This document shows, one piece after another, positions 28,150 to 45,100 of a stretch of 64,000 bases of DNA (positions are counted from its first letter, which is position 1; each line of letters opens with the position of its first letter). A model generated the notes under the pieces. It had not been told where the DNA came from. It was given only the letters and a program-made list of their open reading frames with translations, and did not search any database. The stretch comes from a virus (lineage: Duplodnaviria > Caudoviricetes), in the IMG/VR virus record IMGVR_UViG_3300042519_002516, positions 33-64,032 of that record. One strand, written 5' to 3'. A program made the translations under genes and the position numbers.

Positions 28150-29298
28150 CTAGTTAGAGGCTAAAGTAAACCGCTTGTTTCCGATAGAAACGATGCCGGC
28201 CTCGACTGCCGCTGCCTCGAAGGACTCGACGCTGTGGGTCTTCTGGCCGGCTGGAGCCTTGTCGTGGATCGCGCTGGAGAGTTGCGTGACGGTTAGGTCG
28301 GCGGCCTCGATGATGTCCGTAAGGCTGAGGCCATACGTCATGGCGAGTTGGGCGAGGCTGTTCTTGTCCTCGGTCTTCTTCAGCGACCCCATTGAGCGCA
28401 GGTGCAGCTCCTCGAACTCAACACCAGCAAGCGCCATCTGGACTGCGCGGCTCTTCATTCCGGCTGCCCACTTCTCTACGATCTTGGCGACGATGTAGAG
28501 CCTGCCTGCGGTAGCCGGATCTTCGACATTGTGGAAGTCGATCTCGCCGTCTGGAACCAGCTCCGGCTTCACGCGCTTGGCGATGTCAATAGCCACCGCG
28601 CCCAATGCCGGACAGCGGCCCTCGAACTCGCAGAAGCGGCAGTCGACGGAGGGGCTGAGGTTGTCAACGTCCTGCTCGCCGGTATACCATAAGGCACGCA
28701 CCCGAGTGGCGCGGCAGATGACCTGCGACAGGTCTGCGGTGTACTTAGGCAGGTCGCTGCGGTAGTAGAATCCGGAGAGAAGTTCGCCGCGAACCGGAAC
28801 GCTGAACACCGCTTTGATGGTGTCGACCTCCGGAAACATCTGGAAGACTCCTACTGCGTACGCCGTGGATTGGTCGTTGTCCGGCGGGCAGTCGATCTTG
28901 CTTACACCTGTCTTATGGTCGTGGAGTAGCGCGTAGCTGCCGGCGACGGCTACGATGTCCGCCGTACCGAAGGTCTCGGTGTGGTCGAGAATGATGTGAA
29001 GCCGCACTTCCTGATCGACCGTCGGCTTGATGCCGGTGAGGGCCTCCAGCTCGGCGAGCTCGTTGTTGAGGTCGGCGAGGCACTGGTCGTGGATAGCCAC
29101 CTCCTCCTCGCTCTGCAATCCGGAGATGTCGCCGGTCTCAAGGGCAAAGTGGATGCGGTTGCCTTTCTCGGCTGCCTCCGAAGTGCCGTCGCGGCCTTTG
29201 AATCCGGCGCACTTGCGAACGTACTTCAGACCGGACGGGCCGAACTCGGCGTGGGGCCGGTCGATATGGGACTCAGTGACTTGCGGCGTAGGATTCAT
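28150..29298 (-). CDS. Cas4-like PD-(D/E)XK exonuclease (DUF2800-like)
   Basis: HAEFGPS..C, G..IH, FGTADI, HDHKTG, CRFC....C. Confidence 0.85.
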   Translation of the reverse strand: MNPTPQVTESHIDRPHAEFGPSGLKYVRKCAGFKGRDGTSEAAEKGNRIHFALETGDISGLQSEEEVAIHDQCLADLNNELAELEALTGIKPTVDQEVRLHIILDHTETFGTADIVAVAGSYALLHDHKTGVSKIDCPPDNDQSTAYAVGVFQMFPEVDTIKAVFSVPVRGELLSGFYYRSDLPKYTADLSQVICRATRVRALWYTGEQDVDNLSPSVDCRFCEFEGRCPALGAVAIDIAKRVKPELVPDGEIDFHNVEDPATAGRLYIVAKIVEKWAAGMKSRAVQMALAGVEFEELHLRSMGSLKKTEDKNSLAQLAMTYGLSLTDIIEAADLTVTQLSSAIHDKAPAGQKTHSVESFEAAAVEAGIVSIGNKRFTLASN

Positions 29299-29300
29299 GG

Positions 29301-30614
29301 TTAACTGTTAGCTGAGGTAGGTTGCGCATGAAGCGTGTCCATCGACAAGCGTTTTCTTTCAAGGGCGGTAACTATTTTCTCTTCGATGGTTCCGGCCGCG
29401 ACCAAAACCCTTTGGGTCGCCGGACTCTTGGCTCCGTTGCGGTGGATTCGGCCCAACATTTGCACGTAGACCTTGACATCGTAGGTGGGTGAGATGAGCG
29501 ACATCCTCGGATGGTCTCCGGTTGTGTCGTGCAGGCTCACGCCGACCCCTCCGGCGGCTGAGTTGCAGATGATGACGTTGGTCTCGTTGCGCTGGAACCG
29601 CTGGACGTTCTCCTCGCGGTTGTCGCCGCTCTGGCCGCCGATGATGATCGAGGCCTCCGGAAAATGCTCGTGCATCGCCCGCACCGTATCCGTAAAGTTG
29701 ACAAAGACAACAACGCTGTAGCCCTCGGCGCACGCATCCTGCACCATCGTCACGATGTCCGGAACCTTTGCGGCCTCCGCAAGCTGGCGGGCGCGCAGGA
29801 TCTCAACGAGGATGTGCGGCTCCGGCGAGATGCCCTCTATCGCGTTCTCGATGATCTCCGGCGTGACGCCGTGCTCCTCGTAGAAGGCGGCGATGTCCTT
29901 GAGCGAGCCGAAGGCCAGCGGTTCAGTGATGACATGGTTGGCGGCGAACGCGTCCGGCAGATCGGCGTGGGTCAGCTTGAAGGCGTTGCGGCCGTACAGC
30001 ATGCTGTTGAGGCCTTTGAGCTTGGCGACAGGTCCGGCCTTCCAGTTGTTCCATGGGTCTTGCTTGCAACCTAACTGCTTCATCCAGCCAAACCAGCTGG
30101 TGAGGCCGGCGGCGCTGTCCGGTCGGTTGAGGCTGTGGAGGTCGAGGGCGTAGCCGATGGAGCGCATCTCCGTGGGGTCTTGGCATGCCGTCGCGGAGAG
30201 CATCAGGCACTTGAAGCCGGCCTGCTTCGCAGCTATGAGCATCTGGGAGTTCTGCGTCCACGGGCTCTTGCAGTTGTGGGCTTCGTCGAAAATCAGCAGC
30301 GTGTCCTTCGGCAGGTTCCAGCGGAACATCTTCTTGCCGACCTTCACGAGGAACTCGTTGCCGCGCTTGATCTTCTCGTAGTTGGTGACGAACACCGGAG
30401 TGACTCCAAACTCGGCAAGTTCGCGCTGCCAGTGGGGGATGACGATCTTCGGGCAGATGACCGCAACCGGAACGCCCAACCGCTGCGCCACAGCGCAGGC
30501 CACCACGGTCTTGCCGACGCCGGTCATGCTGGAATCGAGCACGCCGGAGTGCCGGCCCAGCGCACCGCAGATGTTATCAACTTGCTGCTGCTGCTTCGGG
30601 AATAGGGTCTTCAT
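29301..30614 (-). CDS. SF2 (SNF2-like) DNA helicase
   Basis: MTGVGKT, DEAH, SAT, QMLGRIHRNG. Confidence 0.9.
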   Translation of the reverse strand: MKTLFPKQQQQVDNICGALGRHSGVLDSSMTGVGKTVVACAVAQRLGVPVAVICPKIVIPHWQRELAEFGVTPVFVTNYEKIKRGNEFLVKVGKKMFRWNLPKDTLLIFDEAHNCKSPWTQNSQMLIAAKQAGFKCLMLSATACQDPTEMRSIGYALDLHSLNRPDSAAGLTSWFGWMKQLGCKQDPWNNWKAGPVAKLKGLNSMLYGRNAFKLTHADLPDAFAANHVITEPLAFGSLKDIAAFYEEHGVTPEIIENAIEGISPEPHILVEILRARQLAEAAKVPDIVTMVQDACAEGYSVVVFVNFTDTVRAMHEHFPEASIIIGGQSGDNREENVQRFQRNETNVIICNSAAGGVGVSLHDTTGDHPRMSLISPTYDVKVYVQMLGRIHRNGAKSPATQRVLVAAGTIEEKIVTALERKRLSMDTLHAQPTSANS

Positions 30615-32105
30615 TTAGTTCTTCCTGCAAATAGAATATGGCGTCTTGTAACTGGTCTACGGCGTAGGAGAATGCGTCGTCGTTGATGCGGTCTTCCTGT
30701 AGCGCCCGCTTGAAGTACTCGCGCTTCATGGCGGCGAGGACTAGCGGTCGGTTGTCGTCCTCGCCGGTGCTCATTAGCTCCATCCGATCCGCTTGCTTAG
30801 TTCAGGAGTCCACCCACCTAGCTCGTTGAACCGCTTACTAAAAATCTCATAGAGCGGCAGCCGGTCGTCGAAGAGCGGATCGCCGGACGGCGCGAAGCGG
30901 ATGCTGCGAGCCATCTCCTCGTGACTCATGCGGCTGATAGAGTCCTCCGCCAGATACAGTAGGGCGGCTTTCTTCTGGTCGTCGGCCGGCAGGTACGCGC
31001 CGGCAAAGGTGTTGTCTAAGATGAATGACATAGGGTTTCAGGTGTGGTAGATGAGCTTCGCAATCAGGATTCCGCCTAAGGTTCCGGCACTCGCGCCGGA
31101 GCAATAGATGAGTCGGGTGCGCCAGCAGGCGAAGGCCGCCTTGCTGACGTTGAGGGTCCACACTAGCGAGATGAGAAAACCGACGACGATAGCGCCGACC
31201 ATCTTGCCGTGGGAGATTTGCCATGTGTTGATCGCCACTAGGGCAACCTGCATAAAGGCAAGGGTGAATGTCCACAGGCTACTGCGGAGCGGTATCGGCA
31301 ACGTAGGGTCCGGTATCATGTCTGTGCTTTCTGTACTGCGGCCTCCAGCTCGGCGACTTTCGCTTTGAGCATCGTGATCGTGGTTCCGGTATCGTGGTCT
31401 CCGGATGCCCGCTTCTCACACCAGTTGGCTAGCGTTCGCAGCCGGAGGTTCAGCACCTCCTTGCGCGTATGTGCGGGCTTCGCCTCGATGTGCTTATCCC
31501 GTAGGGAAGAAAAGTCGATAGCCCCGAAGTTGTTGCGGAAGGTGTCTCCGTCAACCGGCCTAGGCAAAGGCCCCTTGCCTGCTCCGAATTCGTTCATATG
31601 GCTAAGGATGGGAACATTAGACGGATGAGGCAGATTAGCGTAGCTATGCCGGCTGCACTCAACAAGAAAAAGGATATGAATCTAAACGGATTAGTCCCTT
31701 CGCTGTCGATTCCGCAGCCACATCCGATACTCCATATGAGGAATACGCCTAGGCAGATTAGGATAGTAGTGGTTTCAGTACTCATAGTGTGTCTAGTTCT
31801 TGAAGCGGGATCGGGGTTATTTGCAGGGGCGTAAAGAGCCGCTCCTTAGGCTTTGGGTTCTCCTTGAGCCAGTTGTCGAGGAAGCCCAGCACCGGCGGGG
31901 CCGCCCGCCTGCACTTTAGATGGTGCTGCACTGCGGCGTAGCGGCGTTCGTTCCATAGAACTAATGCGGCTACCGCCTCTTCCGCTTCGTCCTTTTCGCG
32001 TTCCGAGACCCTGCTAACGTACAGCTCAGCTTCCGCCAACTCGGCGAAGGCCACTGCGCTGCCGTCGACAACGCCCTCGTCGGTCACTAAGTAGATGGTT
32101 TTCAT
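30577..32105 (-). CDS. Cluster of six small hypothetical genes (30577-30783, 30774-31031, 31038-31319, 31316-31597, 31594-31785, 31782-32105), two of them membrane proteins
   Basis: Tightly packed co-oriented ORFs, several with 4-nt overlaps. Confidence 0.65.
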
Positions 32106-32866
32106 TTGCCGCAGTTTTCACAGAACAACTCGCCGGTGTGTTTGCGCACCAGCCGGTATCCGCAGCCGCACTGGTTATGCTTAACCGCTTCGATGTAGAA
32201 GTAGTTGGTGCAAGCGAGCGTGTTGTCGTCGTCGTCCGCAAATGAATACCATTCGCCATCCTTACAGGAGGCATACCGCACATTCACGCCTTTCCAGCCG
32301 TAGCCCCTAGAAACCCATCCGGTATAGCCTTCCGGCAACTCCGGAAGCGGGAACATATGATCCGGAATCCGGAGAGGGTCGGCCGGAGTCTCGGTTAGCC
32401 CGAAAGCATCCTCGAACCGGTCTTTCATACCCTCGAAGTCTTGGAAGACGGAAGCGTCCTTCGGCGAAGGCGATCCGTCTACCGGAACACCGTAAGGAAT
32501 GTTGAGGTTGAGGGTGCCGTGCTTCTGCGCGTCGAGTACGATCATCGCGCTGGCGGCAACGTGTGCCAGATGCGAGATACCGGATTCCGGATCGAGGAGC
32601 TCGCCGGACCACCAGCTGTCAAGATGGCGCTTGATCGCGCCGACATAGGTGCTGGCGCAGACGTTGTTGTACAGCCAGTTGAACTCGCCGTACTTGTCAG
32701 CCCCGCCTCGGAGCACCCATGCGATGTCCTGCATAGGCTTAGGCGGCAGCAGGTGCAGCGGGCATTTGGTAGCGCCGATAGCGCCTTTCGGATCGTCGGT
32801 TCGGATAGCGGTGGGCATATTACTTGCGGGTGTAAGATGGGTTGAGTCGGATGCCGTTGCGGGCAA
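32102..32866 (-). CDS. DUF5664 (dATP/dGTP diphosphohydrolase-like) protein with a C-terminal extension
   Basis: DPKG..GATKCPLHLLPP...GADKYGEFNW...DPESGISHLAH. Likely start MPTAIRTDD at about 32818. Confidence 0.8.
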   Translation of the reverse strand: MPATASDSTHLTPASNMPTAIRTDDPKGAIGATKCPLHLLPPKPMQDIAWVLRGGADKYGEFNWLYNNVCASTYVGAIKRHLDSWWSGELLDPESGISHLAHVAASAMIVLDAQKHGTLNLNIPYGVPVDGSPSPKDASVFQDFEGMKDRFEDAFGLTETPADPLRIPDHMFPLPELPEGYTGWVSRGYGWKGVNVRYASCKDGEWYSFADDDDNTLACTNYFYIEAVKHNQCGCGYRLVRKHTGELFCENCGK

Positions 32867-33038
32867 GGGTGAGCAGCAGTTCGTCGTAATTAGAGAGAAG
32901 GCGAAGCCCCACTCCTCCAGAGTCGTCTAGGGCTCCGGCAAGATTCGTAAGGTTGTCGACGTAGAGTTCCATTGCTTCCGGCGTGAAGCCCTCGAAGCGG
33001 TTAGGTGCGGGGGATTCGATGATGTTAAAAGGGTTCAT
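32820..33038 (-). CDS. Small hypothetical protein
   Basis: 72 aa, co-oriented with its neighbours. Confidence 0.55.
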   Translation of the reverse strand: MNPFNIIESPAPNRFEGFTPEAMELYVDNLTNLAGALDDSGGVGLRLLSNYDELLLTLARNGIRLNPSYTRK

Positions 33039-33202
33039 AGAGTTTCAGGTTTATTGTTACCAGATGATGAGAAGGGAGAGGATGAACCAGCCAACACCTG
33101 ACTCTCCTTTGGTGGCGATAGTCGTAGCGATACAGACAATCGCGCTTAGGGCGGTGAGGGAGAGTTTAACGGAGGTATCGGCGGAGTCCATGATTTGAGA
33201 GT

Positions 33203-33278
33203 TGGTGGCAGGAGTCGGACTCGCACCGACGACCTCCAGATTATGAGTCTGGCGCTCTACTATCTGAGCTATCCTGCG
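33203..33278 (-). tRNA. tRNA with CAT anticodon (Met or Ile2), encoded CCA
   Basis: CGCAGGA TA GCTC AGATAGTA GAGC G CCAGA CTCATAA TCTGG AGGTC GTCGG TGCGAGT CCGAC TCCTGCC A CCA folds as a cloverleaf. Confidence 0.92.
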
Positions 33279-33419
33279 GTTAGGGGGTTTACCAAAGCCA
33301 AATGAGAATGGCAGCGGCGGCCAGCAACATGAATCCGGAGGCTGATCCTTGGCTTAGAAGGTAGCAGCCACCGACGATGTCGAGGGCGATAGCGGCGTGC
33401 CGGATAATGTTGAGGGCTT

Positions 33420-33626
33420 TCATCGCGTCAGGCGGTCAGCTCTGTTTAGTACAATCAGCATGAAGACCCCGCAGACGACTAGAATAACCAGCGGAATCCA
33501 CAGCGGGGCGAGTACCCACAACCAAGACCAGTTGATGACTCCGGTCAGCTTGAGGACAATGAACGCCACCGCCAGTAGCGCAGGGAATATCGACGATCCG
33601 GAGGACGAGGAATTACAATTACTCAT
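33420..33626 (-). CDS. Small membrane protein (LKLTGVINWSWLWVLAPLW family)
   Basis: Motif typical of Fragile-X-F/TMEM185-like phage membrane proteins. Confidence 0.75.
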   Translation of the reverse strand: MSNCNSSSSGSSIFPALLAVAFIVLKLTGVINWSWLWVLAPLWIPLVILVVCGVFMLIVLNRADRLTR

Positions 33627-33646
33627 ATCGGTGGCGTTGTTTGGTT

Positions 33647-33955
33647 TTAGACCCCTACGTTGAGGAGCGTAATACGGAGGCGGCTGAGGGTATCGTCATC
33701 CGCACCCATCTCACGAAGCAGGTCGAGGATTTGGTCCGTATCCTTCTCCTTCTCAGCGCAGGCATCGCACACATGCTGTGCTGCCGGAGCAGGCGTGGCG
33801 CGGGCGATCTGCATATAGAGCTCGCCTACAAGGCCTTTCTCATCCACAGCGTCGTCGAGTTCTCGGGCGGCCTCCTCGATAGTGTCGTAGACGCCGCAGA
33901 GATTGGCACCTTCAAATTTGGCGAGGAACTTCGGTTTCAGTTGTTGGTCTGGCAT
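33647..33955 (-). CDS. Hypothetical protein with a CxxC motif
   Basis: 102 aa, co-oriented with its neighbours. Confidence 0.6.
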   Translation of the reverse strand: MPDQQLKPKFLAKFEGANLCGVYDTIEEAARELDDAVDEKGLVGELYMQIARATPAPAAQHVCDACAEKEKDTDQILDLLREMGADDDTLSRLRITLLNVGV

Positions 33956-34001
33956 AACGAGACCGTCTTACTGAAAGGCTAACAGACCCGCAAGATAAAT
34001 T

Positions 34002-34247
34002 TCAGGAATTTTTCAGGAGGCGTTCGATTTCATCCGCGAGCTCTTCAAACGTAAGGCTTTCCACGTCCTGAATGTCGCCGCGCTCCAGCTCGAATTCCTC
34101 ATAAACGAGGTCAAGGAAAATCTCGTAGGCAGCATCCGGAAGCCAGTCCAGCGGTCTCTCCGTGTATGGAGTCGTGGACATTCTGCGGTTGAGGATGTCT
34201 TCCATGATGGCGGCCAAGCGGTCGGTGATGTCGAAGTTCTTTTTCAT
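34002..34247 (-). CDS. Small acidic protein resembling an acyl carrier protein
   Basis: 81 aa from ATG 34247, with LVYEEFELE..DI..V..LTFEELADEIE. Confidence 0.5.
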   Translation of the reverse strand: MKKNFDITDRLAAIMEDILNRRMSTTPYTERPLDWLPDAAYEIFLDLVYEEFELERGDIQDVESLTFEELADEIERLLKNS

Positions 34248-34260
34248 GTCAAGCAAAAGT

Positions 34261-34761
34261 TCAGGCAAATCTACGGCGGACAAACTCGGCGATGAGCGCG
34301 GCGTCAACCATGCCGTCATGGGCTACGCGGTGGCGGGCTGTCGGCAGCCATCGTTCGTTGGGCCATAGGATGTTGGCGGTCCGCAAGGCAGCAACTTTGG
34401 TCTGGCCTTTCGGAACCTTGCCCAACATCGGCGTCTGCCACTCGCCGACCTGCACGCGGATCACCGGAATCATATGGCACTCCGCAACCGCGACCAGCTT
34501 GCCGAAGCTCAGCGCCATTGACCGCACAGCCTGCGAGCTCTTAGCGTGCTTGAGTGGCTCCTCCACCGCGAACACGCAGTCATGATCGGTAAGCTCATCC
34601 AGCATTCCGGCAACGGTAGCGACACACGGCTCCTCCTTACCGGATTCGGTTACAAGCGGCATAGGCTTGCAGGAGAGGATAGCGCCGGTGGCTGCGTCCA
34701 ACGCGCACAGGCCGCCGGAGATTCCGTTGTCCACACCGATGACCACCGTCGGTTTACTCAT
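34261..34761 (-). CDS. RuvC-like Holliday junction resolvase
   Basis: VIGVDNG..GG, AVEEP, W...LG, HDGMVDAALIA. Start ATG 34761. Confidence 0.85.
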   Translation of the reverse strand: MSKPTVVIGVDNGISGGLCALDAATGAILSCKPMPLVTESGKEEPCVATVAGMLDELTDHDCVFAVEEPLKHAKSSQAVRSMALSFGKLVAVAECHMIPVIRVQVGEWQTPMLGKVPKGQTKVAALRTANILWPNERWLPTARHRVAHDGMVDAALIAEFVRRRFA

Positions 34762-35461
34762 CCCCGTAGTCCCCCTCCTCGTCGTCTTCCCCGTATTCGC
34801 CATCGTCCTCAGGATCGAAGACCTCGGCGTCGAGGATGATCTTGCGCTTGTTGACCGTACTGCCGGCCGGCGCGTCCGCACTCAGGTCGGCCTTGGTGTT
34901 GTTCAGGATCGAGATGTCAATGGTGAGACCGCCACCGGCACCGGCACCACCCCTAGGATTCAGGCCCAAGTTGCGGCGGATGAGCTGGTCAAGCTCAGAG
35001 AGCTCCTTCACGGTCCTAGGCCCTCGGACGTTGGCGAGGTTGTCGCGCAGCAACCGGATGGCGCTACCGGCAACGTACGCTTGGTACTGGTCTGCCGGAC
35101 TGCCTTGGTTCTCCGCGACTTGCAGGATGGCTTGCTCTTCTTTGGTGCGGGCCTCGATGAGCGCGTCGGCAATCACCCCGTCGGTTGTCTCAGCCAGCTT
35201 GTCGTTGAAGCTGACCGGCGTGAGGACATCATCCTCCGCGACGTCGCGGCGCATCGGCCTTGCCGGTACGCCGGCCTCCCGTAGCCAGCGGCCGACGGTG
35301 GCGGTGCTCAGTTTTAGCTCATCCGCAATACGGGCTTGGATGACTCCGGCGTTGTGCATCTCGATTGCCCTCTGCCGACGGGCTAATGCCGCCGCCCTAC
35401 CGGCAGCGCGCTGCTCCCGAATGAGAGCAGCTTTGGACTTCTTGGGTTTTTTGGCGGCCAC
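34754..35461 (-). CDS. HTH protein, putative terminase small subunit
   Basis: HTH (QARIADELKLSTATVGRWL), helical core and acidic tail. Divergent from terL. GTG 35461 lies 30 nt after TTGACA. Confidence 0.55.
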   Translation of the reverse strand: MAAKKPKKSKAALIREQRAAGRAAALARRQRAIEMHNAGVIQARIADELKLSTATVGRWLREAGVPARPMRRDVAEDDVLTPVSFNDKLAETTDGVIADALIEARTKEEQAILQVAENQGSPADQYQAYVAGSAIRLLRDNLANVRGPRTVKELSELDQLIRRNLGLNPRGGAGAGGGLTIDISILNNTKADLSADAPAGSTVNKRKIILDAEVFDPEDDGEYGEDDEEGDYGDE

Positions 35462-35529
35462 AACGACAAGAACAACCTTAAAATGAAAGATTGTCAAACA
35501 TATTTTCAATGTGTATCATCTGCGGCACG
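35462..35529. promoter_or_regulatory. Overlapping divergent promoters for the TerS-like gene and terL
   Basis: TTGTCAA at 35491-97 gives TTGACA on the minus strand and TTGTCA-17-TATCAT (35514-19) on the plus strand. Confidence 0.6.
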
Positions 35530-38370
35530 ATGGGCAGACCCAAGAAACAACGGCCGCTGGCCGGAGCAAACGTCGTGTTGGAGCCTAGGATTGATCCTGC
35601 GACAAACATGATGGACGTCGGAGGATACCGGATTCCGGTTACGAACACGCTGACGGCGCTCCTGTGGGGGTTTGCCAATCACGCCCACCCGAAGGCGCGT
35701 GAGTTTTACTTCTGGCGCGTGGCGGATGAGCTTTGGAATCGGGATGACCTTCCGGAGCATATGTTCGAGAAGCATCCGTGGGCGGAGCAGATCATCCACG
35801 AGTGCATCAACAACAAATATTTGGCCATCGGGGGAGCGGCCTCCTGTGTGGCAGGAGACACGAGGTTGTTCGACCCCACCACAGGAGAGTCGCCGACCAT
35901 CCAAAGCCTGTGTGATGGCAACATCCGGCCGACAGTTCAAACGCTCAACGGTCCTGTGTTAGCCGACGTGCCATACCTAAAAGGCACGAAGGAGTTGTTC
36001 GAGTTCAAGTTGTCCAACGGCCAGTCATTCCGCTGCACTGAAGACCATAGGCTGCTTACGCCTTTTGGTTGGCGCTACGCCAAGCAGACCAGCGTTGGAG
36101 CAATGCTCTTCGGATACGCTCCTTACCCTCAGGAGTCCACTTCGGACAACGCCCTTTCAGATCAACCGCGAGGTGGTCGGCATTGCTCTGAAACACTTGT
36201 AGGTTCTCTAGACGGTTGTCGTCGCGCACCCCGTTTATGTGGTGAACTACTTCCGTCGGCAAGAGGTATCGCCCTAGAGACTCTTCCACCACCAGTCGGT
36301 GCTCAAAAACATAGTGGGTGTGCTTTCGAGCGTTCGGATGCCCCTTGCAGTGGATCAGAACATAGCCGTTCTTATCTACTAGTCGACCCTTCCACGCGTA
36401 GTGACGCTCGCCAACTGCGTAGGTCGGGAACTCCTTGGCTACTCCGTTTCGCCGCAAGAACTTCTTCACTTCTTCGTTCTTGGTTCCGACCGTCCGGCCT
36501 ATTTCAGAAAGAGAGCATCCCTCTTCACACATCCGCAGAACTGTCTCGGCGTTCCGCTCACATGCTGAATGGGGGTTGCGCCGACCGGTCCTCGGTGTCG
36601 CAACTCCGTGGCGCTTCAGTAGGTTCCCCACTGTCGCCGTGCGCATCCCGAGCCTATCCGCCACAAGACGGGTGCTTCCCAACTCCGCAAACAGGCGAAG
36701 GATCTCATCTGACTTCGCCTTGTGTCGAAGCGTCCGGCCATCAATCTTCATATGATTTGATGGTGCAACTTGTTCAGGTGGTGTCAATAACCAATGTGGG
36801 CGTACACGACTTCTACGACCTTAACGTGCCAGTAGAGCACCACTACTTCGCCGAGGGCGGTATCCACCACAACAGCGGCAAGAGCCACACCCTAGCCGGC
36901 TACGGGATTATCAGCTGGCTGGCGCGGCCTAGGGATACCCTCGTCCTGATTACCTCGACCTCGTTGCGGGAAGCCCGTAAGCGGATCTGGGGTTCGGTCA
37001 TGTCGCTGCTGTCGGTCATCGACGGGGCTCCGATCAACGTCCGCGACTCCATCGGCTCCGCCAACTACGTCGACGCCAAAGGCAAGACCTTCGACCGCGC
37101 CGGCCTGTCGTTGATCGCTGCGGAGCGCAGCCGCACCCGCGAGGCCATCGGCAAGTTCATCGGTCTTAAACAGAAACACGTCATCCTGATCGGTGATGAG
37201 TTAGGAGAGCTCAGCGAGGCGATCCTCATGGCCGGCCTATCCAACCTGTCGAAGAACCCTAGGTTTGAGCTGAAGGGCCTTCACAACCCTTCGAGCCGGT
37301 TCGACGCCTTCGGCATTTGGGCGACCCCGAAACACGGATGGGAGTCCGTCACGCCGGAAGTCGACGACGAGTGGGAGACGAAGTGGGGTGGCAAGTACAT
37401 CCGGCTCGACGGAGAGCGTTCGCCAAACGTGCTGGCCGGAGCGACCATCTACCCATACCTGCCGACGATTGAGAAGATCGAGGAGGACAAGCGGTTGTTA
37501 GGGGAGAAGAGCCGCGCCTACATGCGAATGGTGCGCGCTGTGTTCTTCGACAGCGACGAGACCGAGGGCATCTACAACGAAGCGGAGCTCGTGTCCTCCG
37601 GCGCGATGCAGAAGGTCGAGTTCTCCGGAGCCACGACCCTCATTGCCGGAGTCGACCCTGCGTTTACCAACGGAGGCGACCGCACCAGCATGTGCGTGGC
37701 GAGGGTAGGCACCGATACCTTGGGCCAATACTCCATCCAGTTCGAAGAATTTCTCACTCTCAACGATGACTCCTCCAACAAGGCTATTCCGCGAACCTAC
37801 CAGATCGTCCACCAGATCCGAGACGCCTGCATAGCAAGAGGCATCAAGCCCGCCGATGTGGCAATCGACGCCACCGGTGCCGGCTCACCGTTGTGCGACG
37901 TCCTAGCCGGCGAGTGGTCCAACGAGTTCCTGCGCGTGCAGTTCGGCGGCAAGGCTTCCGACAGGCGCGTGAGCATGAACAGCAGGCTCACCGGCGAGGA
38001 GCTCTACGTCAACCGCGTCAGTGAACTCTGGTTCGTCGGCAAGGAGTTCATGCGTACCAAGCAGCTCAGAGGTGTCACGCCGGAGCTGGCGAAGGAAATG
38101 ACCAACCGGAACTACGACCTCGTCAAGTCCGTCGGCCTGCGCGTGAAGGTCGAGTCGAAGCAAGAGGTCAAGCAGCGTGCCGGTGCCTCGCCGGACTTGG
38201 GCGACTCCGCGTTCATCGCACTCGACCTTGCGCGGCAGCGCCACGGGCTAGTCGCCGTTGAGCCTCCGAAGAAGCCGGAAATCGGACTCTTCGGGGCGCG
38301 CATGCCGAGGTCGATGCGCGATCTGGACGTCGTAGGGCGGTCAGCCCACGGGCATTTGGCTGATGAGTAA
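35530..38370 (+). CDS. terL: Terminase large subunit with an intein in the Walker A loop
   Basis: After splicing, Walker A reads GGAAS|SGKS. Also ILIGDE (Walker B), LHNP, and RNase H-like AGVDPA..GGD, IDATG and SPDLGDS. Confidence 0.92.
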   Translation: MGRPKKQRPLAGANVVLEPRIDPATNMMDVGGYRIPVTNTLTALLWGFANHAHPKAREFYFWRVADELWNRDDLPEHMFEKHPWAEQIIHECINNKYLAIGGAASCVAGDTRLFDPTTGESPTIQSLCDGNIRPTVQTLNGPVLADVPYLKGTKELFEFKLSNGQSFRCTEDHRLLTPFGWRYAKQTSVGAMLFGYAPYPQESTSDNALSDQPRGGRHCSETLVGSLDGCRRAPRLCGELLPSARGIALETLPPPVGAQKHSGCAFERSDAPCSGSEHSRSYLLVDPSTRSDARQLRRSGTPWLLRFAARTSSLLRSWFRPSGLFQKESIPLHTSAELSRRSAHMLNGGCADRSSVSQLRGASVGSPLSPCASRAYPPQDGCFPTPQTGEGSHLTSPCVEASGHQSSYDLMVQLVQVVSITNVGVHDFYDLNVPVEHHYFAEGGIHHNSGKSHTLAGYGIISWLARPRDTLVLITSTSLREARKRIWGSVMSLLSVIDGAPINVRDSIGSANYVDAKGKTFDRAGLSLIAAERSRTREAIGKFIGLKQKHVILIGDELGELSEAILMAGLSNLSKNPRFELKGLHNPSSRFDAFGIWATPKHGWESVTPEVDDEWETKWGGKYIRLDGERSPNVLAGATIYPYLPTIEKIEEDKRLLGEKSRAYMRMVRAVFFDSDETEGIYNEAELVSSGAMQKVEFSGATTLIAGVDPAFTNGGDRTSMCVARVGTDTLGQYSIQFEEFLTLNDDSSNKAIPRTYQIVHQIRDACIARGIKPADVAIDATGAGSPLCDVLAGEWSNEFLRVQFGGKASDRRVSMNSRLTGEELYVNRVSELWFVGKEFMRTKQLRGVTPELAKEMTNRNYDLVKSVGLRVKVESKQEVKQRAGASPDLGDSAFIALDLARQRHGLVAVEPPKKPEIGLFGARMPRSMRDLDVVGRSAHGHLADE
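35845..36873 (+). mobile_element. Intein (343 aa) in the terminase
   Basis: CVAGDT...CTEDHRLL (blocks A and B) and FYDLNV...HYFAEGGIHHN|S (blocks F and G). Confidence 0.95.
36056..36751 (-). CDS. HNH homing endonuclease (two HTH + NUMOD3-like + HNH) encoded antisense inside the terminase intein
   Basis: YVFEHRLVVEESLGRYLLPTEVVHHINGVRDDNRLENL, GERHYAWKG and two HTH repeats. ATG 36751 lies 30 nt after TTGACA (36787-36782). Confidence 0.88.
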   Translation of the reverse strand: MKIDGRTLRHKAKSDEILRLFAELGSTRLVADRLGMRTATVGNLLKRHGVATPRTGRRNPHSACERNAETVLRMCEEGCSLSEIGRTVGTKNEEVKKFLRRNGVAKEFPTYAVGERHYAWKGRLVDKNGYVLIHCKGHPNARKHTHYVFEHRLVVEESLGRYLLPTEVVHHINGVRDDNRLENLQVFQSNADHLAVDLKGRCPKWTPEGKERIRRALLQRWSAWRSANQKA

Positions 38371-38473
38371 ATGTGGGATTGTGTGGGGTTTGTTGGTTTT
38401 CATGCCTGAATCCCACACGAAATGTGGGACTGGCTTAGGCCCTTAACGCAACTTTATTGCGTTATGTACCGCT

Positions 38474-38595
38474 CAGAAAAATCTGAAAAGTTTCTGGAAA
38501 CCCCCTAATTCATATTAAAGCAGTAATTCAAATAGAAAAAGTGAAATTGAATTACTGCTTTAATATGAATTACCTATATAGAGAAAACTTTATAC
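38474..38595. repeat. 122-bp AT-rich element, copy 2
   Basis: Arms at 38506-38530 and 38548-38572. Differs from copy 1 only within the 17-nt spacer. Confidence 0.95.
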
Positions 38596-38757
38596 TCTTT
38601 TTGCAGGCGTAATTCAGTTTCTCCGGAAACCAACACACAGACCACAGAATCCGGACAGGCGGCTCGCGCCGACCGGCGATCTGCAAAAGCGGAAATTCCA
38701 GCCGGCCTAACTTTTTCCGTTGACCGGATTCCGGATTCCGGATACCTACACCCCACA

Positions 38758-42127: not shown

Positions 42128-45100
42128 ATGCCGGACGTAAAAAAGTTTTCTGAGTGGTCGCTTGACGCCAAAATCACGGAGCCCACCGACCAACTTCGAG
42201 AATACTCCAACTACGTCCGCACCGCCTACATGCGGTCCGGCGAGCTTACTGGAGAGGTTGAGACCGAAATCCAGAACGGCGCGTGGGATAAGGCCAACGA
42301 GCTCAACCTCCTGCCGGCCGACGCACCGGATGAGGAGCGCCAGAAGGCCTTCCGGTCGATGCTCGCACCGAAGCAGGACGTCGACAAGGATGCGCGGTTT
42401 GTCCTTGACTACTACGCCAAGTCCTTCACCGACGAGCTTGATGATCCGACGGAGGCCAAGGAGCGCGAGGAAGTCCTGCGCACCTACCTTGCCCGCCGCA
42501 AAGCCTTTCCGGAATCCGCCGCCGAGCTTCAGGAATCCGTCAACGGAATCCTGTCCGACGCGGACACCGTGCGGCGTGCGCGGATCGCTGCGGTCGACCG
42601 AGGGGACATGCCGGTGGTTGCGTTGCGCGAGGCAGATGGCAATACCAGCTTCTACGCCAAGCCCGACGTCGATGACAAGTACGTCGCCGGTAGCTTCGAT
42701 ACGCTCGTCGCCACCGGCGCGGTTGATCCGTCGGACGCGTACTACCTAAAGGATTTTACTGCACCCACATTAGGCGGTGCCACCACCAAAAGCCGGCTCG
42801 CCGGATTCGATGAGTTCCGGCGGGTCTTCGGCGAGATGTCCGAGAATGATCCGGAGCTCCTGAAGCGGCTTGAGGCTGCCTCTACCGAGTACACCCGCTC
42901 CGGTCAGCGCAGCCAGCGATCCGTCGTTGCGGTTGCCGGAGACCTGTTAGGTGAGGGCCTCGCTGCCTTGGCCTCGCCGATCACCGACGGCATCGGAGGC
43001 CCGCAGGAATTTGTCAGTTCCGACATCGCCGCGCAGTTGCTCAAGACTCCGGCCATCGCCCGCAAGTACTCGAAGGAGCAACTGGAGCAGTACGCCCAAG
43101 ACCTCGTGCTGCATACCAGCAAGCCGGTATACAACGCCGAGAAACCGGAATCCGGTATCGCGGTTGACAGCAACGGGATTCCGGTGATCGCGCCGGCGTT
43201 GCTCGTGCGGGATGACGCCTTCGGTGCGGCGATGGAGGCTGCCGGATTGAACGACGCCCAAAAGGAGTATGCCATCGGCAACCGTGAGCGCGACCTTGCT
43301 GCCCAGACGCCGGAGTTCAAGCGCCTGATCTTCGACAACGACTTCGATGCTGTCGACCTGTACGCGCAGGCCAAGGCGTCCGGCAAGTCCGATGAGCAGT
43401 TCGTGCGGGAGTACTTCTCCAACGACGACAACTATAGTAGCTTCGCCACTACGGCCAAGGGCTTCGGCATGTCCCTTGCCAAGGTGGTGTCCGAGATCCC
43501 TCTTGCCGTTGCCGCAATTGCCGGCTCGGAAGGCTCCGCGAAGGTTCTTGTCGATATGAACAAGGACGCTCAGGACCGCGTCGAGTACGCCCGCATGTTT
43601 GGCGACGAGTTCGGCATCGGTCGTGACGCGTTGTTCATGCTGCCGCAGCTGGCGACCGACATCCTGCTCACCGTCGGCACCGCCGGCGTCGGCACCGCCC
43701 TGAAGAAAGGTGGTACGGCGCTTGCCTCCGGCGTCGGTCGTGGACTTGAGCGCGCCTCGGCCCGCAAGATGGCGGCCACCTTGGGCCGCGCTGCCTTGGA
43801 AGCGTCGCCGGAAGGGGCAACCGCAGTCCGGAAACTGGTGTCCGGTGTCACTGACGCCTCAGTCAAAGAGGCGTTCGAAAAGGTCGCCGAGAGCACGGTG
43901 CGCCGTCACCTACGCAACGCCGCTGCGGTGACTCCGGTTGCCATTACCTCGTTCGCCCGCAGCGCGAGCTCGACCTACGGCAGCCTGTATTCGATGTTGC
44001 CGGATGACCTGAGCCATGAGGAGAAGAACCGGCAGGTGGTGCCGTTTGCGATTGCCTCCGGCTTCAGCACGGCGATCATCACCTCTGCCCTGAGCTACAT
44101 CGGCCAAGGTGGTTTTGAAGACCTTGCCACCGGTCGGCTTACTGCGGCCGGCACGTCTTCCCAAGCAGCGGGCTCGCGCTTCATTCCATTGGAAAAGCTC
44201 ACCGGCCGCCAGCTCAAGTACCTGCACGAGCAGGTGCGCAACGCCGGTCGCTCGATGACCGACAAGGAGTTCCAGACGGTCTTGCGCACCGAACTGTCCG
44301 GCGCGTACAAGCAGACGTTCCGCAATATCTTTGACGGCGTGAAGAGTGAAGCGTTTGAAGAAACGCTCGACCAAGCATTCCAGATCGGCATTCAGGATCT
44401 TGCCACCGGCAAGAAGACTTCGCTCGACGAGATCGGCAGCCAGCTGCTTTCGAGTGCCATCCTAGGCGGGGCAATGGGTGGCGGAGGTAATGCCATCACC
44501 GAGGCCAAGCCGATGTCGCGCTCGCAGCGCACGCAAGCCCTTGAGGCTACCGGCGAGCTGCTTACCAACATTGTAGGCAAACTGAAAAGCGCCGGAAGCC
44601 CGCAGACCGCAGCGGCCCTTGCCACACGCATGAACCTCGCCAACGCAGCCGCTGAGCGCAGCCGCCGCGCTGACCTGCGTGAGCAGGCCGCTAGAGAGGA
44701 AGCCGCGAAGGCCATCAAAGCCGGAGACCTTGACCCCACCGACAATGACGTCAACTCTGCTAAGCCGGACAACACCTTGCTCATCGAGCAGATCGGCGAG
44801 CGCGTGCAGATCGGCGGATACACCGGCACCCTTGAACTCAATCCGGAATCCGGAGCCGTGCAGCTGAAGCTGGCGAAACCACTCAAGGACGGGCAGACGC
44901 ACTTCAACGTCGGCAGCAAGTACGACAACTCGGCGAAGGCCGGCGTGGTACCGACCGGCACGTTGCCGAAGTTGGGTCAGGACTCCGGTCCGATCAAGGC
45001 CGGCACCCCTTACCTGATGCCGGATAAAGGGAGCAAGGCGAAGTTCGCGCTACCGGATACCGTTGCCGGAGTGGAGTACATCGAGAACTTCGGCGGTGCT

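What the first reader, a model, noticed from the sequence alone, without database searches (positions are those of the whole stretch)
35845..36873. Terminase intein carries its homing endonuclease on the opposite strand (dual-coding intein)
Seen: a 343-aa intein (C...HN|S) splits the TerL Walker A motif. Its central ~215 in-frame residues are S/R/P-rich with no LAGLIDADG or HNH motif. The reverse strand (36751->36056, 231 aa) encodes a clean HTH-HTH-NUMOD3-like-HNH protein (EHRLVVE..LGR.L...EVVHHING.RDDNR.ENL). Both frames are stop-free over about 700 nt, and the HNH C-terminus overlaps intein block B. Known: bifunctional inteins normally carry the endonuclease in frame between blocks B and F, and this site tolerates insertions. 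Inference: a free-standing HNH gene inserted backwards into a mini-intein. Its antisense translation is spliced out as filler while the nuclease is expressed independently, which uncouples homing from late terminase expression. I do not know of a described case, but I cannot check the literature.
Basis: partly seen in the sequence, partly recalled or inferred. Interest (0 to 1): 0.93.

Follow-up and report, generated by a model that had tools for sequence, protein, structure and literature searches.

The report
Terminase intein with antisense HNH gene
A lake-water phage's DNA-packaging gene is interrupted by a self-splicing intein whose dispensable middle is, on the opposite strand, an intact HNH homing-endonuclease gene; the layout is real and kept by selection, but it is an HNH version of an arrangement already described for other nucleases.

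Summary
A 343-aa class-1 intein (35845..36873, C1…HHN|S) splits the TerL Walker A loop. A 231-aa HTH-HTH-HNH_3 gene (36751..36056) lies on the other strand inside it. Both frames are stop-free over 732 nt.

This is not chance. Synonymous reshuffling of the HNH gene gives about 6 stops in the TerL frame, with P(0) = 2e-4 to 6.5e-4.

- 27 related IMG/VR loci and 29 of 80 genome-contig loci keep the same frame open, always in the same relative register.
- The HNH frame has dN/dS of 0.07-0.19. The sense frame shows no amino-acid constraint, and its linker is predicted to be disordered.
- The intein is patchy: 51 of 53 close TerL relatives lack it, and the closest one carries a 147-aa mini-intein.
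- The same unit also sits in P-loops of helicase/ATPase genes.

Independent early expression of the nuclease is untested.

The arrangement is not unknown. Antisense LAGLIDADG and VSR-like endonucleases in inteins are published (Gorbalenya 1998, cited; Gosselin et al. 2025 preprint). I found no paper describing the HNH version. This scan has already reported the same thing on other DNA (62 notes, at least 47 genomes).

The parts
35530..38370 (+). Terminase large subunit (TerL) gene including the intein. The likely start is ATG 35530 (MGRPKK, conserved in relatives). The stop-to-stop ORF opens at TTG 35491.
   Evidence: phrog_2 terminase large subunit, E 1.1e-7; relatives start at MGRPKK.
35530..35844 (+). 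N-extein, ending ...LAIGGAAS (first half of Walker A).
35845..36873 (+). Class-1 intein, 343 aa: Cys1, block B T65xxH68, D325, H342-N343, then Ser+1.
   Evidence: (C1, H68, D325, H341, H342 and N343 invariant in 14 of 14 sequences).
35845..36135 (+). N-terminal splicing lobe (intein residues 1-97). Predicted beta-rich with pLDDT above 90.
   Evidence: Foldseek top hit is the Mtu RecA mini-intein, E 6.4e-8.
36136..36750 (+). Sense-frame linker (intein residues 98-302). It is the stop-free antisense read-through of the HNH gene, with pLDDT about 30 and no domain hit.
36751..36873 (+). C-terminal splicing lobe (intein residues 303-343, blocks F and G).
36874..38370 (+). C-extein, starting SGKSHT (second half of Walker A).
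36056..36751 (-). HNH homing-endonuclease gene, 231 aa from ATG 36751, with stop at 36056..36058. An alternative start is TTG 36787.
   Evidence: a 231-aa protein identical to this one was called on 11 contigs; some relatives carry an in-frame stop between the TTG and the Met or GTG.
36431..36751 (-). Two helix-turn-helix DNA-binding modules (HNH protein residues about 1-55 and 57-107).
   Evidence: HTH_38 and HTH_50, both below cut-off. (VIA Z 5-6.4 to Fis/NtrC, resolvase and Tc3 HTH domains).
36149..36406 (-). HNH (His-Me finger) nuclease domain, residues 116-201. The motif EHRLV...EVVHHING..DN..NL...N..HL is invariant in the family.
   Evidence: HNH_3 above cut-off. (invariant columns). (I-HmuI 1u3e: Z 7.0, rmsd 3.2, 79 residues aligned).
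36059..36135 (.). Doubly constrained overlap. The last 26-27 HNH codons (WTPEGKERIRRALLQRWSAWRSANQKA) lie on intein residues 72-97 (TPFGWRYAKQTSVGAMLFGYAPYPQE), which are in the structured splicing lobe.
36769..36795 (.). Stretch just upstream of the HNH ATG where sense third codon positions are unusually conserved (0.8-1.0, against a mean of about 0.55). It holds the TTG that is conserved in 12 of 12 relatives. It may be a start or expression signal for the HNH gene.

Best explanation
This is a mobile, bifunctional intein built from two genes on two strands.

The TerL mRNA is translated straight through the element. The two lobes of the splicing domain (residues 1-97 and 303-343) fold into a HINT domain. 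The 205-residue stretch between them is only the antisense reading of the HNH gene. It acts as a disordered tether and is removed with the intein, which restores the Walker A loop GAASSGKS.

The HTH-HTH-HNH protein is made from its own message on the other strand. It is inferred to nick or cut intein-less P-loop alleles, so that repair copies the whole unit in (homing).

Selection acts on three things:
- the splicing lobes, in the sense frame;
- the HNH protein, in the antisense frame;
- the absence of stop codons in the sense frame across the HNH gene. This is achieved by codon choice in the HNH gene and by avoiding Phe before codons that start with A.

Shown here: the anatomy, selection on both frames, the patchy distribution, and spread across divergent TerLs and other P-loop ATPases.

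Inferred: actual splicing, nuclease activity and target, and separate (possibly earlier) expression of the nuclease.
For: 1. Both frames are open over 732 nt, with HNH_3 above the Pfam cut-off on the antisense strand and only Intein_splicing on the sense strand.

2. Stop avoidance is not chance. Resampling synonymous codons gives a mean of 6.1 stops and P(0) = 0.0002 in 20,000 trials with the window's codon usage. Permuting the gene's own codons gives a mean of 5.6 and P(0) = 0.00065. In 13 distinct relatives, P(0) is at most 0.0002 each in 5,000 permutations, with 5.4-13.8 stops expected.

3. The arrangement is conserved. Among 61 HNH-relative loci in viral contigs, 18 have the HNH ORF inside a 530-1063 aa open frame on the other strand, always in the same relative register. 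None of the other 43 is open in that register; they carry 3-69 stops. Later calls added 9 nested viral loci: L123, L125-L128 and L130-L133, making 27 confirmed; in a further locus, L068, the contig ends inside the intein, so the arrangement could not be checked. In genome contigs, 29 of 80 loci are open in that register, including all of the 20 best hits.

4. Codon-level signature in 19 nested genes: 0 of 456 risky codons (NTT, NTC, NCT) occur before a codon that starts with A, against 777 of 1404 elsewhere. Ile before such a codon never uses ATT or ATC (0 of 29), so it is always ATA. Phe never precedes such a codon, against 73 cases in 34 free-standing homologues.

5. Selection on each frame: the HNH frame has dN/dS of 0.07-0.19 in the 18 of 28 pairs where dS was not saturated. 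The sense frame over the same DNA gives 1.6-2.3, and 7.5 for the closest pair. HNH third positions change 2-5 times as often as first or second positions.

6. Structure: in the intein model, residues 1-97 and 303-343 have pLDDT above 90 and residues 98-302 about 30. Its best PDB matches are inteins (Mtu RecA mini-intein, E 6.4e-8; 19 matches at E<=0.001, all inteins among those listed). The HNH model has mean pLDDT 78, and its best wide-search match is the homing endonuclease I-HmuI (Z 7.0).

7. Mobility: 51 of 53 TerL relatives (63-80% C-extein identity) have the two exteins abutting with no intein. The other two are L068, which has intein and HNH sequence but is cut by a contig end, and one truncated locus. 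On the extein tree the intein needs at least 3 gains or losses, and L068 (intein) is sister to L081 (none) with support 100/98. Splicing lobes are 73-79% and HNH 66-67% identical between the window and L007, L009 and L010, whose C-exteins are only 32-34% identical.

8. The middle is dispensable. The closest TerL (L119, exteins 82-83% identical) carries a 147-aa mini-intein at the same site with no HNH.

9. The same unit sits in the P-loops of a Strawberry-notch-like helicase (Polaromonas sp. CG9_12), an SNF2 helicase and an AAA_2 ATPase.
Against: - There is no direct evidence of splicing, of an antisense transcript or protein, or of cleavage.
- The Pfam Intein_splicing score is just below the curated cut-off (34.0 against 35.8).
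- No sigma-70-like promoter was found on the minus strand upstream of the HNH gene, and I saw no obvious Shine-Dalgarno sequence there. The host is unknown.
- The start codon is ambiguous (ATG 36751 or TTG 36787).
- DNA identity between the window and L002/L003 is only slightly higher in the intein (about 0.72-0.93) than in the exteins (about 0.56-0.86). This shows no recent transfer between these two lineages. The patchiness within this TerL clade could therefore owe as much to losses as to gains.
- The structural match of the nuclease domain is middling (Z 7.0), and Foldseek found nothing at E<=0.001 for the whole HNH model.
- The correlation between splicing-lobe and HNH identities (Pearson 0.95 over 91 pairs) uses non-independent pairs.
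Confidence: 0.85

Rival explanations
1. Fractured gene with a split intein. TerL would be made as two polypeptides that trans-splice, with the HNH gene lying between the halves as in Dassa et al. 2009. The open sense frame would be incidental.
For: Split inteins with a free-standing endonuclease gene between the halves are described (PMC2677866; abstract seen in search listings).
Against: The sense frame is uninterrupted here and in 27 viral and 29 genome-contig relatives, in the face of 5-14 expected stops per gene. That is the opposite of what a split arrangement predicts. The mini-intein L119 is contiguous too.
Confidence: 0.03
2. The HNH protein is not this intein's homing enzyme. It would serve the phage, for example as a terminase-associated HNH that helps cos cleavage, or as a DNA-binding regulator, and would merely be lodged in the intein.
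For: Many phages encode an HNH endonuclease next to their terminase genes (PMC3592412; abstract seen in the listing). The protein carries two HTH modules.
Against: 51 of 53 close TerL relatives lack both the intein and the HNH, so it is not a needed packaging factor. The HNH and the splicing lobes diverge together and travel together into unrelated TerLs and into helicase and ATPase genes. The domain is HNH_3 with an I-HmuI-like fold, which is typical of homing enzymes.
Confidence: 0.07
3. The sense-frame middle encodes a real, so far unknown domain, and the antisense HNH ORF is a relic or a shadow.
For: The sense frame is open, and one predicted helix (residues 198-213) appears in the model.
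Against: Over the overlap the sense frame is 27-54% identical where the HNH is 60-83% identical, and its apparent dN/dS is above 1. Its pLDDT is about 30 and it has no family hit. The HNH frame has dN/dS of about 0.1 and invariant catalytic residues.
Confidence: 0.02
4. Artefact: either chance double openness of a shadow ORF, an assembly chimera, or a self-splicing RNA intron rather than an intein.
For: Codon-aligned shadow frames are often open by chance. In 9 of the 43 free-standing loci the other antisense register (frame 0) is open.
Against: The register used here is never open in the 43 free-standing loci. P(0) is 2e-4 to 6.5e-4. Contigs from four other runs bridge both junctions. No Rfam intron family matched 35300..38600 at E<=1. 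Intein blocks and a HINT fold are present.
Confidence: 0.01

Closest known systems
Non-canonical inteins with an antisense homing endonuclease. These are the antisense LAGLIDADG cases (Synechocystis DnaX, Chloroflexus SpoVR-like, actinophage minor capsid) and the antisense VSR-like/EDxHD cases in actinophage genes including TerL. Source: Gosselin, Arsenault and Gogarten, bioRxiv 10.1101/2025.01.02.630785, sections 8 and 15 read; they cite Gorbalenya 1998 and Gogarten 2002, which I did not read.
   Same: The endonuclease ORF lies on the antisense strand between the splicing blocks. The sense frame has no stops and no recognisable fold. TerL is a host gene. The distribution is patchy and suggests ongoing transfer. 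The authors propose an origin by invasion of an intein by a free-standing endonuclease.
   Different: The nuclease here is HNH_3 with two HTH modules. That paper lists HNH only as an in-frame type, and its four non-canonical types do not include an antisense HNH. The hosts here are uncultured freshwater and other environmental phages, not actinophages. The family is large and deep, with one fixed relative register. It also occupies helicase and ATPase P-loops.
Canonical bifunctional inteins with an in-frame endonuclease (LAGLIDADG, or in-frame HNH as reported in phages).
   Same: A HINT splicing domain split by an endonuclease-coding insert, with homing into conserved sites such as P-loops.
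   Different: Here the endonuclease is a separate polypeptide from the other strand. The in-frame insert is only filler.
Fractured genes: split inteins with a free-standing endonuclease gene between the halves (Dassa et al. 2009, PMC2677866; abstract only, in search listings).
   Same: A free-standing-type endonuclease gene is lodged in the middle of an intein.
   Different: In those genes the host gene is broken into two ORFs. Here the host frame is kept continuous by selection.
ShiLan-type hidden HNH insertions in phage methylase genes (Arsenault et al. 2025, PMC11855218; abstract and outline read).
   Same: An HNH gene is hidden in an alternative frame of an insertion that is stop-free in the host frame.
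   Different: In ShiLan the HNH is on the same strand and out of frame, and no splicing domain is detectable. Here it is on the opposite strand, inside a clear intein.
I-HmuI, the HNH nicking homing endonuclease of a Bacillus phage group I intron (PDB 1u3e).
   Same: It is the best structural match of the nuclease domain (Z 7.0, 79 residues). Both belong to the His-Me finger class.
   Different: I-HmuI is intron-encoded and sense-oriented. Identity is only 23% and the DNA-binding modules differ.

Membership tests
Intein (HINT superfamily, class 1) | N-terminal Cys/Ser/Thr nucleophile (block A) | tested here: met
   Cys1 at 35845..35847, invariant in 14 of 14 aligned inteins.
Intein (HINT superfamily, class 1) | Block B TxxH | tested here: met
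   T65-E-D-H68 (36037..36048). His68 is invariant in 14 of 14; Thr is not invariant in distant members. The motif definition is recalled.
Intein (HINT superfamily, class 1) | C-terminal His-Asn followed by a Ser/Thr/Cys +1 extein residue (block G) | tested here: met
   H342-N343|S, with HHN invariant in 14 of 14 and Ser or Thr at +1 in all.
Intein (HINT superfamily, class 1) | HINT fold | tested here: met
   Predicted model only. Residues 1-97 and 303-343 have pLDDT above 90. Foldseek top hits are inteins (2imz E 6.4e-8; 4o1r TM 0.82 normalised to the target).
Intein (HINT superfamily, class 1) | Curated profile match (Pfam PF14890 Intein_splicing at the gathering score) | tested here: inconclusive
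   34.0 bits against a cut-off of 35.8 (E 3.1e-8) for the intein alone. The relatives L134 (56.2 bits) and L177 (44.9 bits) pass.
Intein (HINT superfamily, class 1) | Protein splicing activity | not testable with these tools
   Inferred from intact motifs in an essential gene of a genome that CheckV rates 100% complete.
HNH / His-Me finger endonuclease (Pfam HNH_3) | Profile match above the curated cut-off | tested here: met
   PF13392: E 1.5e-9, 37.8 bits, cut-off 24.8. phrog_10730: E 1.3e-27.
HNH / His-Me finger endonuclease (Pfam HNH_3) | Conserved His/Asn catalytic and metal-binding residues | tested here: met
   E150, H151, R152, H170, H171, N179, N183, N190 and H193 are invariant in 14 of 14. 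Which of them is the general base is recalled, not tested.
HNH / His-Me finger endonuclease (Pfam HNH_3) | Beta-beta-alpha-metal fold | tested here: inconclusive
   VIA wide search: the top hit is I-HmuI (Z 7.0, rmsd 3.2, 79 residues), which is in the tool's middling range. Foldseek found no match at E<=0.001 and placed I-HmuI at rank 10.
Homing endonuclease gene | Sporadic presence at one site among otherwise close alleles | tested here: met
   51 of 53 TerL relatives lack the element at the same codon boundary. At least 3 gains or losses are needed on the extein tree.
Homing endonuclease gene | Cleavage of the empty allele near the insertion site | not testable with these tools
   Needs a bench assay.
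Non-canonical intein with antisense endonuclease (as in bioRxiv 10.1101/2025.01.02.630785) | Endonuclease ORF on the antisense strand between the splicing blocks, with the sense frame stop-free | tested here: met
Non-canonical intein with antisense endonuclease (as in bioRxiv 10.1101/2025.01.02.630785) | Nuclease of the described types (LAGLIDADG or VSR-like/EDxHD) | tested here: not met
   The nuclease is HNH_3. It therefore works like the described cases but is a different nuclease family.
Fractured gene / split intein (Dassa et al. 2009) | Host gene broken into two ORFs by the endonuclease gene | tested here: not met
   A single 959-aa ORF here, and continuous ORFs in all nested relatives.
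Terminase large subunit | Profile match and Walker A restored after splicing | tested here: met
   phrog_2 E 1.1e-7. GAASSGKS is restored, and intein-less relatives read KYLAIGGAAS|SGKSHTLAGY.

The most novel reading that the evidence does not exclude
All antisense-HNH inteins descend from one ancient capture of a free-standing HTH-HNH gene by a P-loop intein. Since then the two genes have evolved as an obligate two-strand unit locked in one register (HNH codon position 1 opposite sense position 1). This unit hops between unrelated P-loop NTPases (TerL, Strawberry-notch-like and SNF2 helicases, AAA ATPases) by using the DNA that encodes the Walker A loop as its homing site. The antisense placement would let the nuclease be made from a different, earlier transcription programme than the late TerL message. 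Here the HNH gene points the same way as the adjacent leftward DNA-metabolism genes.
Probability: 0.3. Interest if true: 0.7.

Novelty: new variant of a known kind. Interest (0 to 1): 0.5.

Why it matters
This is a clean natural case of about 700 nt read on both strands, with measurable selection of three kinds: protein sequence on one strand, mere absence of stops on the other, and a short stretch constrained on both.

It extends the recently described class of inteins with antisense endonucleases to the HNH family. It also shows that this form is a deep, widespread lineage in environmental phages and MAG contigs, not a rarity.

It supports the "splicing domain first, endonuclease captured later" view of how inteins evolved. 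It gives concrete material for testing how homing timing can be uncoupled from host-gene expression. One carrier is a cultured strain (Polaromonas sp. CG9_12).

There is a practical side. Gene callers tend to call the HNH ORF: an identical 231-aa protein was called on 11 contigs, and most relatives are named "hypothetical protein". Annotation is therefore likely to split or mis-annotate the terminase.

Tried and rejected
- **Phage GenBank collection.** blastn (distant mode) with the TerL gene found no match.
- **Promoter and terminator scan.** No promoter-like site was found on the minus strand near the HNH gene. The host is unknown, so this says little.
- **RNA evidence.** No RNA holder was listed for the stretch. 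The four runs laid were DNA contigs only, so they say nothing on expression. They showed no intein-less joint at 90% or more likeness, which does not prove that none exists.
- **Foldseek of the whole HNH model.** Nothing at E<=0.001. The VIA wide search then put I-HmuI on top with a middling Z.
- **Recent co-conversion.** Sliding identity between the window and L002/L003 shows no sharp tract around the intein. The shared AGY GGY AAG AGC codons just downstream of the junction in intein-bearing alleles are suggestive only. I did not use them as evidence.
- **L022/L023.** A 615-aa frame is open antisense to an HNH gene in the codon-aligned register. I read it as a chance shadow ORF running into a capsid-like gene. 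I saw no intein motifs by eye; Pfam was not run on it.
- **Rfam.** No intron family matched.
- **NUMOD3.** No Pfam hit at E<=1.
- **dnaX out-of-frame endonuclease preprint (10.64898/2026.09.14.751524).** I saw it only as a search listing and could not open it.
- **Supplementary files.** Supplements of the Gosselin et al. preprint were not available. They may list individual inteins that bear on whether an antisense HNH was seen.
- **Claim of "not in print".** This rests on five full-text searches and on reading sections 8 and 15 plus keyword passages of that preprint.

Full report
**What is there**

The window is a virus record of about 64 kb that CheckV rates as complete. The stretch is held by lake-water metagenome runs.

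A 959-aa ORF on the + strand (35491..38370) matches terminase large subunit profiles. Its likely start is ATG 35530, because relatives begin at MGRPKK. Between ...LAIGGAAS and SGKSHT... it carries a 343-residue insert (35845..36873). The insert starts with Cys, has T65xxH68, and ends His-Asn before Ser. Removing it restores the Walker A loop exactly as it reads in intein-less relatives.

On the - strand an ORF runs 36787..36056, giving 231 aa from ATG 36751. It matches Pfam HNH_3 above the curated cut-off and PHROG HNH endonuclease families at E 1.3e-27. Two weaker helix-turn-helix hits lie N-terminal to the nuclease domain. The sense frame of the insert matches nothing except Intein_splicing, at 34.0 bits against a cut-off of 35.8. 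I found no NUMOD3 hit. The HNH gene touches block B only with its stop codon, although its last 26-27 codons do overlap the structured residues 72-97 of the splicing domain.

**Is the double openness more than chance?**

Yes. I kept the HNH protein fixed and redrew synonymous codons. The TerL frame then acquires about 6 stops on average. It is stop-free in 0.02% of 20,000 trials with the window's codon usage, and in 0.065% when the gene's own codons are permuted. The other two + strand frames over the overlap carry 8 stops each.

In 13 distinct relatives the same test gave P(0) of at most 0.0002 each.

The way stops are avoided is visible in the codons. In this register a sense stop arises when an HNH codon ending in TT, TC or CT is followed by a codon starting with A. 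In 19 nested HNH genes such codons occur 0 times in 456 at-risk contexts, but 777 times in 1404 other contexts. Ile in the at-risk context never uses ATT or ATC (0 of 29), so it is always ATA. Phe, which has no safe codon, never precedes an A-starting codon. In 34 free-standing homologues it does so 73 times. A count of zero follows by definition from the open frame. The contrast with the other contexts and with free-standing genes shows what the open frame costs and how it is achieved.

**Relatives**

A scan of viral contigs with the HNH protein returned 61 loci.

- In 18 of them (L002-L018 and L058; HNH identity 84% down to 41%) the HNH ORF lies wholly inside a 530-1063 aa open frame on the other strand. 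The relative register is always the same.
- In the other 43 that register holds 3-69 stops.
- All 18 host ORFs are TerLs with a Cys...HHN|Ser/Thr intein in the Walker A loop. The insertion point varies slightly: GGAAS|SGKS, GGNR|SAKS, GGFG|SGKS, RVGK|T, QSGK|T, GKGE|T.
- A scan with the N-terminal splicing lobe added nine more nested loci (L123, L125-L128, L130-L133). That gives 27 confirmed nested viral loci. A scan with the C-extein also returned L068, which has intein and HNH sequence but whose contig ends inside the intein, so it could not be checked.
- In one-genome-per-species contigs, 29 of 80 HNH-relative loci are open in the same register, including all 20 best hits. Nearly all are MAG contigs from many phyla.

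**Selection on each frame**

Over the overlap, eight sequences give 28 pairs.

- The HNH frame has dN/dS of 0.07-0.19 in the 18 pairs where dS was not saturated.
- The sense frame read from the same alignment gives 1.6-2.3, and 7.5 for the closest pair.
- HNH third positions, which are sense second positions, change 2-5 times as often as the others.
- HNH amino-acid identity is 60-99%, where the sense read-through is 28-92%.

The sense ratio above 1 is an expected by-product of the overlap and is not positive selection. It shows that the sense amino-acid sequence is not conserved. Catalytic-type residues of the HNH domain are invariant in 14 of 14 sequences.

**Structures (predicted)**

In the intein model, residues 1-97 and 303-343 have pLDDT above 90 and are beta-rich. 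Residues 98-302 have pLDDT of about 30. Its best PDB matches are inteins, led by the Mtu RecA mini-intein at E 6.4e-8.

The HNH model (mean pLDDT 78) shows two small helical DNA-binding modules and a nuclease domain. The best match of that domain among 48,161 chains is the homing endonuclease I-HmuI (Z 7.0, rmsd 3.2, 79 residues). That Z is middling by the tool's own standards. Foldseek found nothing at E<=0.001. The family assignment therefore rests mainly on the profile hits.

**Mobility**

Among 53 viral loci whose TerL C-extein is 63-80% identical to the window's:

- 51 have the two exteins abutting at the very codon boundary, with no intein;
- one (L068) has intein and HNH sequence but is cut by a contig end;
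- one is truncated.

On a maximum-likelihood tree of 55 C-exteins the intein needs at least three gains or losses. An intein-bearing allele (L068) is sister to an empty one (L081) with support 100/98.

Between the window and L007, L009 and L010 the splicing lobes are 73-79% identical and the HNH 66-67% identical. The C-exteins are only 32-34% identical. The unit has therefore moved between very different terminases. Splicing-lobe and HNH identities rise and fall together (Pearson 0.95 over 91 pairs, which are not independent).

There is evidence against recent movement in this lineage. DNA identity to L002/L003 is only slightly higher in the intein than in the exteins. Within this clade, losses may explain as much of the patchiness as gains.

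The closest TerL in my set (L119, exteins 82-83% identical) has a 147-aa mini-intein at the same site. It consists of the two lobes joined by about 10 residues, with no HNH. This shows that the middle is dispensable. It does not tell whether the mini form is ancestral or a deletion.

**Beyond terminases**

In genome contigs the same intein-plus-antisense-HNH unit sits in other P-loop proteins:

- a Strawberry-notch-like helicase (AAA_34 and Helicase_C_4; Polaromonas sp. CG9_12, L177; Intein_splicing 44.9 bits);
- an SNF2-type helicase (L166);
- an AAA_2 ATPase (L164).

This fits the idea in the Gosselin et al. preprint that nucleotide-binding sites let inteins switch exteins.

**Expression**

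Expression is untested. TerL opens the rightward block of the genome. The genes to its left (28150..34881) are on the minus strand and encode an exonuclease, a helicase, a dNTP pyrophosphohydrolase-like protein and a Holliday-junction resolvase. The HNH gene therefore points the same way as the DNA-metabolism block.

No sigma-70-like promoter was found, and no RNA run was listed (reported only as tried).

Just upstream of the HNH ATG, sense third codon positions are unusually conserved (0.8-1.0 at 36769..36795, against means of 0.54-0.58). A TTG at 36787 is kept in 12 of 12 relatives. Three lineages nevertheless have an in-frame stop between that TTG and the downstream start. I cannot explain this stretch. 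It may be a start or expression signal.

**Comparison with what is known**

The arrangement as such is published. Gosselin, Arsenault and Gogarten (bioRxiv 10.1101/2025.01.02.630785; sections 8 and 15 and keyword passages read) describe actinophage inteins with antisense LAGLIDADG and antisense VSR-like endonucleases, including in TerL. They cite Gorbalenya 1998 and Gogarten 2002 for antisense LAGLIDADG in Synechocystis DnaX. They list HNH only as an in-frame type.

The ShiLan element (PMC11855218; abstract and outline read) hides an HNH in another frame of the same strand and has no splicing domain. Fractured genes (PMC2677866; abstract in listings) have the endonuclease between split halves.

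Five full-text searches found no description of an antisense HNH in an intein. The preprint's supplements were not available to me.

This scan has already reported the same arrangement on other DNA, in 62 notes from at least 47 genomes. The eight follow-up reports shown there reached the same reading as mine.

**Verdict**

This is a real, selected, two-strand selfish element. It is a new variant (HNH) of a known kind, and this window is one more member of a family that the scan has met many times.

- the codon-level mechanism of stop avoidance;
- the fixed register across all members examined;
- the matching mini-intein in the closest TerL;
- the occurrences in helicase and ATPase P-loops, one of them in a cultured strain.

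Noticed in passing
window 42128..53968 (+): A single 3,946-aa ORF lies downstream in the structural block. Its first 1,291 residues have no Pfam hit at E<=0.01.
   Followed up: partly
window 38501..38588: A long hairpin-like element sits in the AT-rich gap (GC 0.38) just after the TerL stop. It gives weak matches on both strands to plant miRNA precursor models, far below their gathering scores, so it is probably a palindromic terminator or another structured element.
   Followed up: no
window 36769..36795: Sense third codon positions are 0.8-1.0 conserved across 12 relatives, and a minus-strand TTG at 36787 is kept in 12 of 12. Some lineages nevertheless place a stop between it and the HNH start (TAA followed directly by GTG in L007 and L009). 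This may be an expression or re-initiation signal for the HNH gene.
   Followed up: partly
L119:2501-2941: A 147-aa mini-intein with no HNH sits at the same P-loop site in the TerL closest to the window's (exteins 82-83% identical). In the antisense frame only the tail ...SNQKE* of the HNH remains.
   Followed up: yes
L177:1-7533 (Polaromonas sp. CG9_12); also L197, L166/L165/L171 and L164: The same intein with an antisense HNH lies in the P-loop of a Strawberry-notch-like helicase (AAA_34 and Helicase_C_4), of SNF2-type helicases and of an AAA_2 ATPase.
   Followed up: partly
L134:2501-3475: A 325-aa TerL P-loop intein (Intein_splicing 56 bits) has no antisense ORF of 90 aa or more. Its in-frame insert contains a ...QPDF...EIKG... 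stretch that looks to me like a PD-(D/E)xK nuclease motif. The motif is recalled and there is no Pfam hit.
   Followed up: partly
L022:2834-4678 and L023:2918-4762: An HNH gene lies upstream of, and opposite to, a capsid-like gene. Its codon-aligned shadow frame happens to stay open and fuses to that gene as a 615-aa ORF. I saw no intein motifs by eye, and Pfam was not run on it.
   Followed up: partly
L154 (MAG labelled uncultured Opitutae bacterium): The closest genome-contig relative of the HNH (73-75% identity, nested in a 943-aa TerL-like frame) is binned with an Opitutae MAG. This is a weak hint at the host group of this phage clade, or a binning accident.
   Followed up: no
window 34261..34881 (-) and 28150..32866 (-): The block to the left of TerL is on the minus strand and encodes a Holliday-junction resolvase, a dNTP pyrophosphohydrolase-like protein, a helicase and an exonuclease. 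TerL therefore sits at a divergent junction between the replication and structural modules.
   Followed up: partly
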